NCBI GenBank assembly: GCA_963775425.1
Contig: CAVZJB010000018.1
Location: 211,582-275,581 of the forward strand
Length of the DNA stretch: 64,000 nt
Source of the DNA: an uncultured delta proteobacterium
GTDB lineage: Bacteria; Myxococcota; UBA727; VGSZ01
Direction: 5' to 3'
Positions 34,804-39,871 of this stretch are shown here, piece by piece. The notes under the pieces are model-generated. The model searched no databases. It was not told the DNA's origin and was given only the letters and a program-made list of their open reading frames with translations. A program made the position numbers and the translations under genes. Each line of letters begins with the position of its first letter. Within the stretch, counting starts at the first letter, position 1.

Positions 34804-36177
34804 ATGCGCGTTTATCGTGGACTCGTCCTCGCCGGCTTGTTCGCCGGTTGTGTGTTGCCCACCGACCGCACACAGGATCTCGGCGACGGCGAGATCCACG
34901 GGGCGGTGAAAAGGGAGGACAAGAGCCCCGCGAAGGGCGCCCTCGTCCACGTCGCCGGCAGCGACCGCGTCACCCGCGTCGACGACGCGGGCGCCTTCGT
35001 CGTCCGCGGCCTCGTCCCGGGCACCTGGGTGCTCTCCATCACCGAGGACGACGAGGGCGACGGCGTCGCCGAGCGCGCCGCCCTCGTCCCCGTCACGCTC
35101 GCGCTCGCCGGCATCCCCAGGAACCTCACCGACGGCTGCACCGGCGCCCCGCCGCAGGCCGTGACCAGCTTCCTCCTCGGCGACGTCACCCTCGCCCCCA
35201 CCGTCACCCTGCGCGGCACCGTCACCCTCGGGGCCGCGGCGTCCGGCGACTTCGCCCGCGTCGTCGTCTGGCGCGACGTCGACGTCGGCGGCGAGGCCCA
35301 CGCCGGGCCCATCGAGGGCGCCGCGGGCGTCGGCGCGGACGGCAGCTTCGCCGTCGCCGGCATCGCCCCGGGGCCCGTGCACGTCGCGGCCTTCGCCTTC
35401 GATCCCCTCGAGGGCGCCGACAAGCCGCTCTTCTTCGGCGTCGCCGACGCCGACGCCGCCGACGCGAACGTCGCGGTCACCGTCGACCAGAGCGCGCGCA
35501 CCGCCGCCGACCCCACGCGCCAACAGACCACCCCGGTGCAGATCGACACCCAGTGGAACGTCCCCGCCACGCCCGCGGTGCAGCTCACGCTCGCCACGTT
35601 CCTCGCGCCCGACGGCGACACCGAGGTGCTCCCGCCCGACGGCACCGGCTGGGACCTCGACGAGCAGACCCACGCCTTCGTCCTCGACGCGCCCATCGGC
35701 GTCGTCGACATCGCGTTCGAGAGCGCCACCGACGGGGCCGTCGGCAGCACCCTGCGCGGCGCGGTGGTGGTCCCCGGCGTGGCCGTGCTCGGGCCGCTCG
35801 AGCTGCCGGTGCTCGCCGACCCCTGCGTCGTCGACGGCGGCGGCCGCGACTGCGACCACGACGGCGTCCCCGGGCTCGCCCTGCCCGACAACCCCGACGT
35901 CGTGCAGCAGTACCACGCCTGCGCGGCGTCCTGCGGCGCCGCGTTCGGCGCCGACAAGGCGGGCGCGGTCTGCGACGGCGACGGCTCCGACTGCGACGAC
36001 GACGGCGACGGCCAGCCCGACGTCACCGAGCCCGTGCAGTGCCTCGGCCCCGGCCGCGGCACCGACCTCGACGGCGACGGCCTGTGCGAGCCCGCGTCCG
36101 ATCCCTTCCCCTCGTGCGCCGACAACGATCCCGCGACGTGCCCCCAGGCGTTCGCCGCGCCGACGCCGCAATACTAG
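34804..36177 (+). CDS. Lipoprotein with carboxypeptidase-regulatory-like domains and DxDxDG motifs
   Basis: Lipobox FAGC; [14 protein letters not shown]; [14 protein letters not shown]. Confidence 0.72.
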
Positions 36178-36185
36178 AGGAACCC

Positions 36186-36740
36186 GTGAGCATCCTGAGC
36201 GACAAGCGCATCCGCGAGCTGGTGAAGTCCCACGGCATGATCGAGCCGTTTGTCGAGGGACAAAGGCGCGACGGCTGCATCTCCTACGGGCTCAGCTCGT
36301 ACGGCTACGACGCGCGCGTGTCCCCGGAGTTCCTCATCTTCACCAACGTCGACAGCGCCGTCGTCGACCCCAAGGCGTTCTCCGACAAGGCCTTCGTCAA
36401 GCGCGAGACCGACGTCTGCATCATCCCGCCCAACAGCTTCGCGCTCGCGCGCACCGTCGAGTACTTCCGGGTGCCGCGCGACGTCATGGTCATCTGCCTC
36501 GGCAAGTCCACCTACGCCCGCTGCGGCATCATCGTGAACGTCACGCCGCTCGAGCCGGAGTGGGAGGGGCACGTCACCCTCGAGTTCTCGAACACCACGC
36601 CGCTGCCCGCCAAGATCTACGCGAACGAGGGCGCCTGCCAGTTCCTCTTCCTCGAGGGCGACCAGCCCTGCGAGGTGAGCTACCTCGACCGCAAGGGCAA
36701 GTACCAGGGCCAAAAGGGCGTCGTCCCCCCGCGGCTGTGA
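36186..36740 (+). CDS. dcd: dCTP deaminase
   Basis: [37 protein letters not shown] 36186. Confidence 0.96.
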
Positions 36741-36749
36741 GACGTCCTG

Positions 36750-36755
36750 TGTCAA
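36750..36755 (-). promoter_or_regulatory. -35 box of the IS110 circle-junction promoter
   Basis: TTGACA; after circularisation it lies 17 nt from CAACCT (38237-38232). Confidence 0.65.
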
Positions 36756-36778
36756 CCACCGCGCTGCGTCACGCCATC

Positions 36779-37984
36779 TCAGGCGGCGAGCGCGGCGGCG
36801 CGGCCGTGAAGGGCCGGGTCGTACGGGACGCGGGCTTTCCAGCACGCGTACAGCACCCGGAGCCACGCACGAGCGAGGATGCGGGTCGCATGCGGGTGGT
36901 CGTGGCCGCGAGCGCGGGCAGCGTCGTAGAGGGCGGCGGCCCATGGCGAGCTGTGTCGCGAGTTGTCGGCCCAGAGGGTCACGGCGGAGCGCAGGTGCTT
37001 GTTGCACGCCCACCGGAACGCGACGCCGACGTGCTTGCCGGACGCGAACGTTACGGGGCACACGCCAGCCTCGGCCTCGAGGTGCTCGTGGCTGTCGAAG
37101 CGCGCGCGCTCGTCGCCGAGCTCGCTGAGAATCTGCGCGGCGTTGATGCGTCCGCTGCGCGGAAACGACATCACGATGTGCCCGTCGGGGTGCGCCTCGA
37201 CGGCGTGTTCGACGGCGGCGTTGAGCTTCTTGAGACGTGCGACGACGATGTCGAGGACCGCGACGAGGTGCTGCACGGCTTCCCCCTTCGCCTCGGCCTC
37301 CATCTCGCCGCACTTGCCGCTGGGCGCACCTCGCAAGCGGCCCAGGAGCTCGGCGACGTCCCTGCGACCGGAGTAGTGGTTGCGCGCCAGGAACGCTTCG
37401 AGCCGCTTCTCGCCGACGCGCTCGGCGTGCTGCGGTGTCGGGTACCTCCCGAGGAACGCCAGCGCGATGGGCGAGTCGATGTCGCGGAAGATGCACGCGG
37501 CGCCGGCCCAGAAGCTCTCAACGAGCGCGCGCAGCTGGTTCGCCAGTGCAACCCGCTCGGCAACGAGGTCGCCGCGTGCGCGAACGAGGGCACGCAGCGC
37601 CTTCGTCTCGTCTCCGAGCGGCGTGAGCGTCTTGAAGCGATGCCCATCGGTGCGCAGCAAGTCTGCCAGCAGGTAGCTGTCGCCGGGGTCGCTCTTGGCG
37701 CCAACGCTCGAGTAGCGCGGACGCGTCGCTTTCACGACGTTCGGGTGAATCGGCACGACGTGGAATCCCGCATCGACCAGCGTGTCGACGACGAGCCCCG
37801 TCGGCCGCTCGATGGCGATGCGCAGCGGCGCTTCCTCAGTGAACCTACGGAGCTTCGCCACAGCGCCGGTGAGACCCTCCTCGGTGTGCTTGACGACGAG
37901 GCGGAGCACGACGCTGCCCTTGTCGTCGATGACGCAGACGGCGTGTTCGTTCGCCGCCCAATCCAAACCTGCAAAGTACGACAC
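36779..37984 (-). CDS. IS110 DEDD recombinase/transposase
   Basis: FAGLDW, IAIE, KSDPGD (DEDD); AGVCPVTFASG serine loop; GGAGG before GTG 37984. Confidence 0.95.
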   Translation of the reverse strand: MSYFAGLDWAANEHAVCVIDDKGSVVLRLVVKHTEEGLTGAVAKLRRFTEEAPLRIAIERPTGLVVDTLVDAGFHVVPIHPNVVKATRPRYSSVGAKSDPGDSYLLADLLRTDGHRFKTLTPLGDETKALRALVRARGDLVAERVALANQLRALVESFWAGAACIFRDIDSPIALAFLGRYPTPQHAERVGEKRLEAFLARNHYSGRRDVAELLGRLRGAPSGKCGEMEAEAKGEAVQHLVAVLDIVVARLKKLNAAVEHAVEAHPDGHIVMSFPRSGRINAAQILSELGDERARFDSHEHLEAEAGVCPVTFASGKHVGVAFRWACNKHLRSAVTLWADNSRHSSPWAAALYDAARARGHDHPHATRILARAWLRVLYACWKARVPYDPALHGRAAALAA

Positions 37985-37994
37985 GACGGACCTC

Positions 37995-38225
37995 CTTGTT
38001 GCGGTACCGTCCCCCGGGCTGGGAGCCTTGATCGGTTGCTCATTGACAGGCGCTCCGTCGTCGTCAGCAAACATCGTCGGGCGCAACGTCCTGTAGCCGC
38101 TTCAAGGCTCCCGGCTTCGTCGAGGGGGCGGGTCTCACAGGGGCCGTTCACCGGCAAGCGAGCGCGGCCCTCCCCGACGAAGCCCGGGAGACGGCGCCGG
38201 GAAGATCGCTCAACCCGTCACCGCG
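37995..38225 (-). ncRNA. Predicted IS110 bridge RNA (ends approximate)
   Basis: Four short segments match the reconstructed target and donor sites in the expected order (see findings). Confidence 0.78.
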
Positions 38226-38350
38226 GCGTAGAGGTTGTCCAATGAGCGCGGCAGGCGGCCCGCCGCGCCTGCAACCGGAATCCCCCGTCGTCAAGCGAGC
38301 GCTCGTCCGGCGTCCGGCGTGAGACACGCCCGCGGCGCGCGCCCTTTGTC

Positions 38351-39871
38351 GTGCCACAACCAGACGAGATGTCCGGGACCTACGCCGCCGTCCAGAAGCA
38401 CCCGCGCTACCCGCTGGAGGTCCCCGTCGACGTCGTCACCCCGGCGGCGGAGGTGCAGCAGCTCGCGCTCGTCGACATCTCCCTCGGCGGCGTCTTCATC
38501 CGCACCGCGCGGCCGCCGCCGCCCGGGAGCGCCCTGCGCCTGCGCATCCGGACCGGGGAGGCCGCCGCGAGCCTCGGCCTCACGGGGCGGGTGGTCCACA
38601 TCCTCGACGAGGACGAGGCCCGCAGGAAGGCGCACCCGCCCGGCATGGGCGTGCAGTTCGAGGGCATCTCGGAGCAGACGCGCGCCCAACTGCAGCGCCT
38701 CGTCGACGGGCTCGTCGAGGCCGCCCGCCGGGAGCGCGCCCGCCGCGGCGCCGTGCGCTTCGCGCCGCCTGCCGCGATCGTGGTGAGCCCCGAGCGCGGC
38801 GCGGTCGCCGCGCTGTGGGAGCAGGGGCTCAAGCACGGCGGGGTGTTCGTCGAGTGCCCGCAGGGGCCCCCGTTCGGCGCGCGGGTCGGCGTGTCCATCG
38901 GGCCGCTCACGCTCAAGGCCGACGTCGTGCACATCGACGCCGGCCGCGGCTTCGGCGTGCAGGTGCTCGACCTCGACGAAAAGAAGCGCGAGGCCCTGCT
39001 GCGCTTCGCCCAGGGGACGGCGGAGCACATCGCCGTCGAGGAGGTGCGCGTCGTCGGCCCGCCGCTCGGCAAGGTGCTCGCCGCCGCCCGCCGGCTCTTC
39101 ACGGGCATCGACGAGGGCGACCTCTTCGGCGGCGCCGGCCTCCCCGACACCGCCGGGGCCGACGAGGTCAAGGTGCGCGTCGCCGGCCTCGTGCGGCTGT
39201 TCTCGACCAGGCGCCCCGACGCCACGCCGCCGCAGCAGGCGCGCATCGAGGCCGCGTCACGCGCCGCCGCCAAGCTCGAGCCGCTTCTGCTCGCGCGCGT
39301 GGCGGCGCTGCGCAAGGAGGCGGAGCTGGCGCCGGCGCAGCTCGACGAGAGCGATCGCGTGCGGGAGCTCGTCGCCGAAGCGCAGCGGCTCATGGCGAAG
39401 GAGCCTGCGTCGGCGCGGCGCGTGTTGTTGAGCGCGCTCGAGATCGCCCCCGATGACGACGACGTCATGCGGCGGCTCGCGGCGCTCAACGAGACCATGG
39501 ACTTCGCCCGCGCCGTGGACCTCGTGAAGAGCGCCGACGTCTTCGTGCAGGGCGTGGGCATGCGCGCGGAGGCGGTGCAGCGCGCGCGCGAGGCCGCGCG
39601 GCTGACGCGGCGCCGCGAGGTGCGCCTGCTCGCGGTGCGCGTGCTCGCCAAGGCGGGCGAGCCCGACGACGCGGCCCTGCTCGCCGAGGAGCTGGTCGAC
39701 GCGGACCCGCGGGACGCGCTCGGGTGGCAGGCGCTCCTCGCCGTCAACGAGCGGCGCGAGGACTGGCGCGGCGCCGCGCGCGCCGGTGAGGCCCTGCTGC
39801 GCCTGAAGCCCGGCGACCCCGCCTTGAAGAAGCGCGTGGCCAAGGCGGTGGAGCGGGCGCGCCGCGGCTGA
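38351..39871 (+). CDS. PilZ-domain protein with C-terminal TPR-like repeats
   Basis: KHPR..DISLGGVF, PPGMGVQF; second degenerate PilZ; helical repeats. ATG 38369 is an alternative start. Confidence 0.8.
   Translation: MPQPDEMSGTYAAVQKHPRYPLEVPVDVVTPAAEVQQLALVDISLGGVFIRTARPPPPGSALRLRIRTGEAAASLGLTGRVVHILDEDEARRKAHPPGMGVQFEGISEQTRAQLQRLVDGLVEAARRERARRGAVRFAPPAAIVVSPERGAVAALWEQGLKHGGVFVECPQGPPFGARVGVSIGPLTLKADVVHIDAGRGFGVQVLDLDEKKREALLRFAQGTAEHIAVEEVRVVGPPLGKVLAAARRLFTGIDEGDLFGGAGLPDTAGADEVKVRVAGLVRLFSTRRPDATPPQQARIEAASRAAAKLEPLLLARVAALRKEAELAPAQLDESDRVRELVAEAQRLMAKEPASARRVLLSALEIAPDDDDVMRRLAALNETMDFARAVDLVKSADVFVQGVGMRAEAVQRAREAARLTRRREVRLLAVRVLAKAGEPDDAALLAEELVDADPRDALGWQALLAVNERREDWRGAARAGEALLRLKPGDPALKKRVAKAVERARRG

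What the first reader, a model, noticed from the sequence alone, without database searches (positions are those of the whole stretch)
36738..38246. IS110 with a directly readable bridge RNA matching its insertion site at the dcd stop codon
Seen (minus strand): reconstructed target TGCCGCG-CT-CACAG and circle donor AGGACGT-CT-CATTG. The 5' non-coding end holds, in order, GCCGCGCTC (38168-38160, left target), CTGTGAG (38140-38134, complement of CTCACAG), ACAGGACGT (38094-38086, left donor) and CAATGAG (38045-38039, complement of CTCATTG). Circularisation builds TTGACA-17 nt-CAACCT. Established: this is the IS621-type bridge-RNA layout with a CT core. The insertion preserves the dcd TGA. Inference: an intact, reprogrammable high-GC ortholog.
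Basis: partly seen in the sequence, partly recalled or inferred. Interest (0 to 1): 0.75.

Follow-up and report, generated by a model that had tools for sequence, protein, structure and literature searches.

The report
Bridge-RNA jumping gene at stop codons
This is an intact, recently active jumping gene of the already known RNA-guided (IS110 "bridge RNA") kind; all four of its copies sit on the stop codon of a neighbouring gene and most match the guide RNA on one side only, which makes it a useful natural example rather than a new mechanism.

Summary
The element is real. It is a 1,505-bp IS110-family insertion sequence (window 36742-38246, minus strand) with an intact DEDD/Ser recombinase. 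Its left end holds a two-loop bridge RNA whose helices covary in 12 relatives. The genome has three identical full copies, a fourth with one substitution, and one truncated copy.

They lie in internal loops and covary with flanks and element ends across orthologs.

The fourth, the left target guide, is placed 4 nt too far 5'. Family alignment and IS621 architecture put it at 38165-38157 (GCGCUCG-CU). In that register the window's left flank matches only 3 of 7. The other copies have unrelated left flanks. All share CG-CT-CACAG, so most copies look like right-half ("half-match") insertions.

New here: all 4 full copies sit on a CTG-TGA stop codon of a convergent gene (4/4 versus 34/208 unoccupied sites). 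In the wider clade 12 of 16 TGA-type sites do the same.

Verdict: a new member of a known kind. The scan has found IS110 bridge-RNA elements on other DNA before. No expression, circle-junction or empty-site data could be obtained.

The parts
36742..38246 (-). IS110-family element, 1,503 bp plus one copy of the 2-bp CT core (38246-38245).
   Evidence: Three identical full copies, a fourth with one substitution, and one 932-nt remnant in the genome share exactly these ends.
36740..36741 (-). Second copy of the CT core at the right end. On the plus strand it reads AG, and its A is the third base of the dcd TGA.
   Evidence: A relative (L064) has an uninterrupted target repeat with a single CT.
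36735..36739 (-). Right target CACAG. On the plus strand this is CTG (last Leu codon of dcd) plus TG of the stop.
   Evidence: Identical in 4 of 4 full copies and complementary to the RTG. The Dcd C-terminal Leu plus stop is native in 9 of 9 relatives read.
38247..38253 (-). Left target TGCCGCG. It matches the homology-placed LTG at positions -1, -2 and -4 only.
36779..37984 (-). Recombinase gene, 401 aa, GTG start, AGGAGG at 37996-37991. Catalytic residues D8, E59, D99, D102 and S315-G316.
   Evidence: PF01548 and PF02371. NF033542 scores 183 bits against a cut-off of 140. Residues are invariant in 11 orthologs and aligned to IS621 D11/E60/D102/D105/S241 (residue roles from PMC11208158).
36750..36755 (-). 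TTGACA in the right end, the -35 half of the circle-junction promoter.
   Evidence: Conserved in the right ends of relatives read (TGGACA in L048/L063).
38232..38237 (-). CAACCT, the -10-like half of the junction promoter. It matches TATAAT at 2 of 6 positions (A2 and T6).
   Evidence: Function not shown.
38198..38217 (-). Small 5' stem-loop of the predicted bridge RNA.
   Evidence: MFE fold. Not tested by covariation.
38118..38179 (-). Target-binding loop: outer stem, internal loop and inner hairpin (38155-38143).
   Evidence: Helix 2 has 7 of 10 pairs with compensatory change.
38157..38165 (-). Left target guide in the family register: GCGCUCG plus core-pairing CU, followed by a 1-nt linker and the inner hairpin.
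   Evidence: Invariant C and near-invariant U at these columns in 12 relatives. The layout is the same as IS621 (LTG, 1-nt linker, stem-loop; PMC11208158). LT matches in this register in 8 of 18 sites of the clade.
38160..38168 (-). It is out of register by 4 nt and its first 2 nt are in the stem.
38134..38140 (-). Right target guide CUGUG plus AG. It is followed by AC (38133-38132), placed like the IS621 handshake guide and complementary to the GT that ends the right end.
   Evidence: 15 of 16 sites perfect against 0 of 166 non-cognate pairs. Handshake concept from PMC11208158.
38021..38112 (-). Donor-binding loop: outer stems, internal loop and inner hairpin.
   Evidence: Helices 4 and 5 have 8 of 12 pairs with compensatory change.
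38086..38094 (-). Left donor guide ACAGGACGU, identical to the last 9 nt of the right end.
   Evidence: The variable bases track the right end in relatives (GGACG, GGAUG, GGGUG, GGAAG, GGGCG).
38039..38045 (-). Right donor guide CAAUGAG, the complement of CT-CATTG at the left tip. It is followed by CA (38038-38037) in the handshake position.
36174..36740 (+). dcd (dCTP deaminase), convergent with the IS. Its stop codon lies on the insertion point.
   Evidence: PF22769, 5.9e-34..

Best explanation
This is an intact, recently active insertion sequence of the IS110 group that works like IS621. After excision as a circle, the joined ends form a promoter (TTGACA, 17 nt, CAACCT). That promoter transcribes a bridge RNA of roughly 200 nt from the left end.

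The RNA's second internal loop pairs with the element's own joined ends (LDG ACAGGACGU, RDG CAAUGAG). Its first internal loop pairs with the target (RTG CUGUG-AG; LTG GCGCUCG-CU at 38165-38157). The DEDD/Ser recombinase then exchanges strands at the CT core.

The predicted cognate site is CGCTCG-CT-CACAG. The window copy and most other copies match only the right half plus the core plus CG. They are best read as natural right-half ('half-match') insertions.

The right half, read on the other strand, is CTG-TGA-G, so copies sit on the stop codon of a convergent gene and leave it intact.

Shown here: element anatomy, RNA structure covariation, guide/flank covariation, catalytic residues, copy number and the stop-codon position. 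Inferred: transcription, circle formation, and the claim that left-half pairing was not needed for these insertions.
For: Copies and enzyme: three identical full copies, a fourth with one substitution, and one remnant. PF01548 and PF02371. NF033542 above its cut-off. D8, E59, D99, D102 and S315 are invariant and aligned to the IS621 catalytic residues.

RNA structure: the left end folds with z = -5.9 and 0 of 200 shuffles fold as well. In 12 relatives 95.6% of cells pair, 18 of 32 pairs show compensatory change, 0 of 500 shuffles reach this, and slid controls give 40-47%.

Right target: RTG against RT at +2..+5 is perfect in 15 of 16 sites, against 0 of 166 non-cognate pairs, with 0 of 20,000 element permutations reaching the observed sum.

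Left target: LTG against LT at -6..-3 in the family register scores 4/4 in 5 and 3/4 in 3 of 18 sites. Non-cognate pairs give 4 and 8 of 198. Permutation gives 0 of 20,000.

Donor side and natural reprogramming: the variable bases of the LDG track the right end. Against the closest relative (L056, 88% protein identity), 6 of 16 differences fall in the 12 guide positions (p = 1e-4).

Register: IS621 has an LTG, a 1-nt linker, then a stem-loop (PMC11208158 passages). The family register has the same layout.

Half-match in this genome: there are 212 CTCACAG sites. One unoccupied site has a perfect 6-nt LT and six have 5 of 6, yet 3 of 4 full copies sit at sites scoring 3-4 of 7. Half-match recombination is reported for IS621 (preprint 10.64898/2026.08.31.748434, abstract and section 8).

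Stop codon: 4 of 4 copies against 34 of 208 unoccupied sites (Fisher p = 9e-4). Pfam domains end at the junction for Dcd, UnbV_ASPIC and FemAB_like.

Promoter: no sigma-70-like promoter was found in the integrated copy.
Against: No RNA, circle-junction or empty-site data exist for this organism.

The -10 element matches TATAAT at only 2 of 6 positions.

Only 2 of 208 background sites carry that hexamer, so slipped pairing cannot be dismissed.

Within this genome the two registers explain the five left flanks equally badly (8 of 20 variable positions each, my count).

The left boundaries of relatives were located with the RDG complement, so their RDG/LE matches are circular.

The excess at gene ends may partly reflect loss of copies that disrupted genes. 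With gene-interior sites removed, 4 of 4 has p = 0.009, and my gene calls are only a GC3 heuristic.
Confidence: 0.7

Rival explanations
1. The window insertion is a full-match event in which GCCGCG-CU-C (38168-38160) serves as the left target guide, pairing in a register slipped 4 nt 5' of the usual one. The tandem CGCU-CGCU in this element's loop might allow this.
For: There is a perfect 6-nt plus core match to the window's left flank. Only 2 of 208 unoccupied CTCACAG sites carry GCCGCG. The loop contains two CU dinucleotides.
Against: The 9-mer occurs in 4.4% of random windows of this genome. Two of its bases are invariant stem pairs. Its CU falls on columns that vary freely among relatives, whereas the CU one linker base before the inner hairpin is conserved (invariant C, near-invariant U) and corresponds to the IS621 layout. 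By my reading, no slipped match is visible in the other poorly matching sites (L049, L050, L054, L003, L004, L005). Full matches in relatives all use the family register.
Confidence: 0.2
2. The left side of the target is chosen by DNA structure or protein contacts, for example a hairpin downstream of the stop codon as reported for ISPpu10, rather than by RNA pairing or by nothing.
For: In 4 of 5 left flanks the predicted DNA hairpin ends at or within 4 nt of the core. The ISPpu10 preprint reports a required target hairpin (10.64898/2026.03.19.712850, abstract only).
Against: The hairpins are no stronger than in shuffled sequence: z = -0.40, -1.61, -1.79, +1.38, -1.42 for the five own flanks, and -1.11 and +0.18 for two relatives. 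One left flank (L003) is coding sequence.
Confidence: 0.07
3. The mismatched left flanks arose after insertion, by recombination between copies that swapped flanks, so each flank was once part of a full-match site.
For: There are five near-identical copies in one genome.
Against: Swapping only redistributes left flanks. Four of the five left flanks match the guide at 3-4 of 7 wherever they are placed. The relative with three copies shows the same pattern (L049, L050, L054).
Confidence: 0.03

Closest known systems
IS621 (E. coli) bridge recombinase and bridge RNA (Durrant et al. 2024, PMC11208160; Hiraizumi et al. 2024, PMC11208158; PDB 8WT6)
   Same: Both have a left-end RNA with a 5' stem-loop, a target-binding loop and a donor-binding loop. 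The order is LTG, 1-nt linker, hairpin, RTG, then two handshake-position bases. Both have a CT core, a junction promoter with its -35 in the right end, and a DEDD plus Ser active site.
   Different: The protein is a distant relative: E = 3.8e-7 for the single sequence and 2.7e-18 for the profile, and 401 aa against about 326. The RTG pairs with 5 nt plus the core rather than the 4 bp stated for native IS621 in the Xie preprint. The effective LTG looks like 6 nt, since position -7 mismatches in 4 of 5 full-match sites. Targets here are gene ends, whereas I recall IS621 targeting REP repeats; no call here checked that.
ISCro4 (PDB 9T56)
   Same: It is the second solved IS110 bridge recombinase that the profile matches (6.4e-16).
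   Different: Only the sequence match was seen. Nothing further was compared.
Half-match recombination of IS621 (Xie et al. 2026 preprint, 10.64898/2026.08.31.748434)
   Same: Insertion occurs at sites complementary across the core and one arm only.
   Different: That study could not score right-target-only events because the IS621 RTG is only 4 bp. Here the longer RTG makes right-only sites visible as fixed natural copies. My evidence is comparative, not experimental.
ISPpu10 / ISPpu9 (Pseudomonas putida IS110 elements)
   Same: They are IS110 elements that land in intergenic 'safe' places (abstracts).
   Different: Those target one repeated intergenic or REP sequence, and ISPpu10 needs a DNA hairpin. 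Here the targets are unrelated genes' stop codons and no hairpin signal was found.
IS1111-group elements with seekRNA (Siddiquee et al. preprint 10.1101/2024.04.26.591405)
   Same: They belong to the same superfamily and use an RNA guide with two loops.
   Different: Their RNA lies downstream of the transposase gene (passages). Here it lies upstream.
IS900/IS901/IS902-type IS110 members of mycobacteria (recalled, not checked in any call)
   Same: As I recall, they insert at a translation signal, between the ribosome-binding site and the start codon, in a fixed orientation.
   Different: That involves a different signal (start rather than stop) and a different clade. This is a lead from memory only.

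Membership tests
IS110 family, IS110 group (bridge-RNA insertion sequences) | RuvC-like DEDD domain with all four acidic residues | tested here: met
   PF01548, 1.5e-32. D8, E59, D99 and D102 are invariant in 11 orthologs and aligned to the IS621 DEDD residues.
IS110 family, IS110 group (bridge-RNA insertion sequences) | C-terminal Tnp domain with the catalytic serine (IS621 S241-G242) | tested here: met
   PF02371, 2.3e-14. S315-G316 are invariant and aligned to the IS621 ESG motif.
IS110 family, IS110 group (bridge-RNA insertion sequences) | Curated family model above its cut-off | tested here: met
   NF033542 'IS110 family RNA-guided transposase', 183.1 bits against a cut-off of 140.
IS110 family, IS110 group (bridge-RNA insertion sequences) | No terminal inverted repeats; a 2-bp core present once in the empty site and at both ends of the element | tested here: met
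   CT is at both ends in 4 of 4 full copies. A relative, L064, has an uninterrupted copy of its target repeat with a single CT. No empty site was available for the window itself.
IS110 family, IS110 group (bridge-RNA insertion sequences) | Structured RNA in the left end, upstream of the recombinase gene, with two stem-loops that carry internal loops | tested here: met
   No Rfam family matched (a single chance-level hit, E = 0.71).
IS110 family, IS110 group (bridge-RNA insertion sequences) | Donor loop complementary to the joined ends | tested here: met
   LDG matches the right end at 9 of 9 and RDG matches the left tip at 7 of 7 in this element. The variable LDG bases track the right end in relatives. 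RDG matches in relatives are circular because they were used to find the boundary.
IS110 family, IS110 group (bridge-RNA insertion sequences) | Target loop right guide complementary to the right flank | tested here: met
   4 of 4 copies here and 15 of 16 sites in the clade.
IS110 family, IS110 group (bridge-RNA insertion sequences) | Target loop left guide identical to the left flank | tested here: inconclusive
In the family register this is met in 8 of 18 sites of the clade and in 1 of 5 copies here (L002, 6 of 7). The window copy scores 3 of 7.
IS110 family, IS110 group (bridge-RNA insertion sequences) | Promoter rebuilt across the circle junction | tested here: inconclusive
   The -35 TTGACA is present and conserved. 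The -10 CAACCT matches the consensus at 2 of 6. No promoter-like site was found in the integrated copy. Activity was not tested.
IS110 family, IS110 group (bridge-RNA insertion sequences) | Circular intermediate, RNA expression and RNA-recombinase binding | not testable with these tools
   No sequencing run holds this organism.

The most novel reading that the evidence does not exclude
This large clade of bridge-RNA elements (at least 7,882 proteins at E <= 1e-60) is tuned to stop codons. The fixed CT-CA of the site reads TGAG on the other strand, and the three programmable right-guide bases spell the last sense codon of a convergent gene. Pairing with this right half alone is enough for insertion in nature. 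Gene ends would then serve as safe harbours, and the left guide would add specificity only where a matching site happens to exist.
Probability: 0.4. Interest if true: 0.65.

Novelty: new member of a known kind. Interest (0 to 1): 0.45.

Why it matters
Bridge recombinases are being developed as genome-writing tools, and their off-target rules are under active study.

This element offers a high-GC ortholog with a longer right guide. It also offers a natural record that is hard to read in IS621: fixed copies that match the guide on the right half only, while better-matched sites in the same genome stay empty.

If right-half pairing really suffices, that bears on how specific such tools can be. 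The stop-codon position also suggests how an RNA-guided element can spread without breaking genes.

None of this changes the known mechanism.

Tried and rejected
Rfam scan of 36000-39000 at E <= 1 gave only a chance-level snoRNA hit.

The IS DNA was not found in 40 related genomes. The recombinase profile at E <= 1e-90 matched in 3 of 400 other genomes sampled from the phylum.

Empty site for the window: relatives' Dcd proteins end in Leu plus stop (9 of 9 read; CTG-TGA-G exactly in one). The sequence downstream of dcd is not conserved, so the left half of the empty site could not be checked.

Flank searches for the other copies gave only one-sided homology. For L004 the ortholog in a relative ends at the same residue position with TGA-G.

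Sequencing runs: no RNA holder listed. The best DNA holders share <= 0.07 of the words. Laying four of them showed only relatives' dcd and related IS copies, with no contig bridging the element and no junction. Nothing follows on expression, circles or empty sites.

Left-flank DNA hairpins are not stronger than in shuffles, so structure gating is not supported.

Stop-to-stop ORF listing around the copies was uninformative at 72% GC. It was replaced by GC3 frame tests and Pfam.

Rows dropped before the counts:
- L051-L053, L055 and L065-L074: no target loop found by my pattern. Most are an actinobacterial subgroup or partial contigs.
- L060, L061 and L063: the same sites as L058, L046 and L048.
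- L094 and L095: found later and read by eye. LT 4 of 7 each, RT 4 of 5 each.

Searches for prior reports of stop-codon targeting by IS110 elements (passages) found none. This is not proof of absence.
Full report
WHAT IS THERE. On the minus strand, window 36742-38246 is a 1,505-bp element (1,503 bp plus one CT core). It has a 401-aa gene (37984-36779, GTG start, AGGAGG six bases upstream) and a 260-nt non-coding left end.

The protein carries PF01548 (DEDD_Tnp_IS110, 1.5e-32) and PF02371 (2.3e-14). It scores 183 bits on NCBIfam NF033542, 'IS110 family RNA-guided transposase', whose cut-off is 140. A profile of 11 orthologs aligns to the solved IS621 recombinase (2.7e-18) and to ISCro4 (6.4e-16). 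D8, E59, D99, D102 and S315-G316 fall on the IS621 catalytic residues, and all are invariant in the 11 sequences (residue roles from passages of PMC11208158).

The genome holds four full copies and one remnant of the first 932 nt. Three full copies are identical and the fourth has one substitution. The element has therefore moved recently.

The neighbours are dcd (PF22769), convergent with the IS and ending on it, and a PilZ-TPR gene beyond the left end.

THE RNA. The left end folds far better than shuffles: -141.6 kcal/mol, z = -5.9, 0 of 200.

I collected relatives of the recombinase from other phyla (10 loci) and from metagenomes (19 loci). I aligned the RNA region of 12 distinct elements.

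The consensus has two stem-loops, each with an internal loop and an inner hairpin. For that structure:
- 95.6% of cells pair;
- 18 of 32 pairs show changes on both sides;
- no shuffle in 500 reaches any measure;
- sliding the partners drops pairing to 40-47%.

This is the IS621 layout as described in PMC11208160 and PMC11208158 (passages). Rfam has no matching family.

THE GUIDES.

Across relatives, the five right-guide bases before the invariant AG are the exact complement of the right flank. At the four variable positions, 15 of 16 insertion sites are perfect against 0 of 166 non-cognate pairs. No permutation of guides among elements in 20,000 reaches the observed sum.

The variable bases of the left donor guide follow the last bases of the right end. 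The right donor guide matches the left tip. In relatives I used that match to find the boundary, so it is not independent there.

Against the closest relative (88% protein identity), 6 of the 16 differences in 182 aligned RNA positions fall in the 12 guide positions (p = 1e-4). This is natural reprogramming.

Two further details fit the IS621 'handshake' idea. The invariant AC after the right target guide is complementary to the GT that ends every right end read. The C after the right donor guide faces the G at left-target position -1. In the one relative with C at -1 (L048), that base is G. This is one covarying case and a lead only.

THE LEFT TARGET GUIDE IS MISPLACED. In the alignment, the core-pairing CU is conserved (invariant C, near-invariant U) and lies one linker base before the inner hairpin. 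This is the same arrangement as IS621: LTG, 1-nt linker, stem-loop. In this element that CU is at 38158-38157 and the guide is GCGCUCG (38165-38159).

Its string begins with two invariant stem bases, and its 'core' falls on columns that vary freely among relatives.

In the family register the clade splits in two. At positions -6..-3, 5 of 18 sites match 4/4 and 3 match 3/4. Non-cognate pairs give 4 and 8 of 198, and permutation gives 0 of 20,000. The other 10 sites are at background level. Position -7 mismatches in 4 of the 5 best sites, so the effective guide looks like 6 nt.

One relative (L064) sits in a repeated unit whose second, uninterrupted copy lies just downstream. That copy shows left target, one CT and right target in a row.

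THIS GENOME'S COPIES. All four full copies share CG-CT-CACAG, and the left flanks are otherwise unrelated. In the family register they score 6, 4, 3 (the window) and 3 of 7, and the remnant scores 3.

The genome has 212 CTCACAG sites, of which 4 are occupied. None has a 7 of 7 left target. One unoccupied site has a perfect 6-nt left target and six have 5 of 6. Copies therefore sit at worse-matched sites while better ones are empty.

The simplest reading is insertion guided by the right half, the core and the adjacent CG. This is the 'half-match' behaviour reported for IS621 in a 2026 preprint, which could not score right-only events because that RTG is only 4 bp.

The match is 6 of 6, and only 2 of 208 background sites carry that hexamer. 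Against it, the 9-mer occurs in 4.4% of random 262-nt windows of this 72% GC genome. Within this genome, both registers explain the five left flanks equally poorly.

STOP CODONS. Read on the other strand, core plus right target is CTG-TGA-G. In all four copies the convergent frame that ends in this TGA is the best coding frame (GC3 0.95-0.99) and is open for more than 100 codons.

Pfam confirms three of these genes:
- Dcd;
- a protein with a C-terminal UnbV_ASPIC domain;
- a FemAB-like protein whose match runs to position 368 of 369 of the model. Its ortholog in a relative stops at the same place.

By the same test only 34 of 208 unoccupied sites are gene ends (Fisher p = 9e-4). With gene-interior sites removed, 33 of 107 are gene ends, giving p = 0.009 for 4 of 4.

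In the clade, 16 of 18 sites with a known right flank form TGA in this way. Twelve of those 16 pass the gene-end test. Three failures have flanks under 200 nt and one fails clearly. Pfam shows VirB8, a branched-chain ABC ATPase whose C-terminal domain ends on the last residue, XseB, an MFS transporter and a GH65 enzyme ending at the junction.

In this genome only 4.1% of all TGAG sites, and 16.3% of those not inside genes, are gene ends.

Several caveats apply. The 12 sites come from seven distinct elements. The baseline comes from one genome. My gene calls are a heuristic. Loss of gene-disrupting copies must contribute to the excess.

Two literature searches found no report of this bias for IS110 elements.

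WHAT COULD NOT BE SHOWN. No run holds this organism, so there is no evidence on the RNA, the circle or an empty site. The -10 half of the junction promoter is weak, matching the consensus at 2 of 6. The integrated copy has no promoter-like site, which fits junction-dependent expression but does not prove it.

VERDICT. This is a clean new member of the IS621-type bridge-RNA insertion sequences, in a very large clade (at least 7,882 proteins at E <= 1e-60). The scan has reported IS110 bridge-RNA elements on other DNA before.

The two observations worth following up are the right-half-only match of most natural copies and the docking on stop codons.

Noticed in passing
L003:1498-1503 and L003:3005-3529 (G000 contig C12, another copy of the IS): This copy sits between the TGA of an unnamed gene and an ECF sigma-factor gene (Sigma70_r2 and r4_2). 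The sigma reading frame now begins at an ATG that lies in the IS left tip. In the uninterrupted site the same frame would begin at the GTG overlapping the upstream stop. The insertion therefore splits a coupled gene pair but leaves a start codon.
   Followed up: partly
L005:1500-2700 (G000 contig C18, 86451-87382): This is a remnant holding only the first 932 nt of the IS. It is followed by two copies of a direct repeat of about 28 nt. The cause of the truncation is unknown.
   Followed up: no
L052, L053, L055, L065-L069, L074: Actinobacterial relatives seem to use a GT core instead of CT. The left junctions read ..G-GT-CACTGG. L053 has the right end ..GGT-GT-TATAG with a loop string complementary to GT-TATAG. 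Several carry about 200 nt of conserved sequence after the recombinase stop. All of this was read by eye.
   Followed up: no
L064:80-170 and downstream of its IS: The element sits in a repeat of about 60 nt. An uninterrupted second copy about 90 nt downstream serves as a natural empty site.
   Followed up: partly
G000 contig C12, minus strand, site reported: This is an unoccupied site with a perfect 6-nt left target, core and right target for this element's bridge RNA. Six more sites have a single left-target mismatch, several of them at gene ends. They are predicted next landing sites.
   Followed up: partly
window 38139-38140 and 38162-38165: Metagenome contigs of related elements (runs X1 and X4) differ from the window mainly at the guide positions. 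They show the same right-guide variant as relative L056.
   Followed up: partly
window 38351-39871 (+): A 506-aa protein with two PilZ stretches and a TPR-rich tail lies beyond the IS left end, reading away from it.
   Followed up: no
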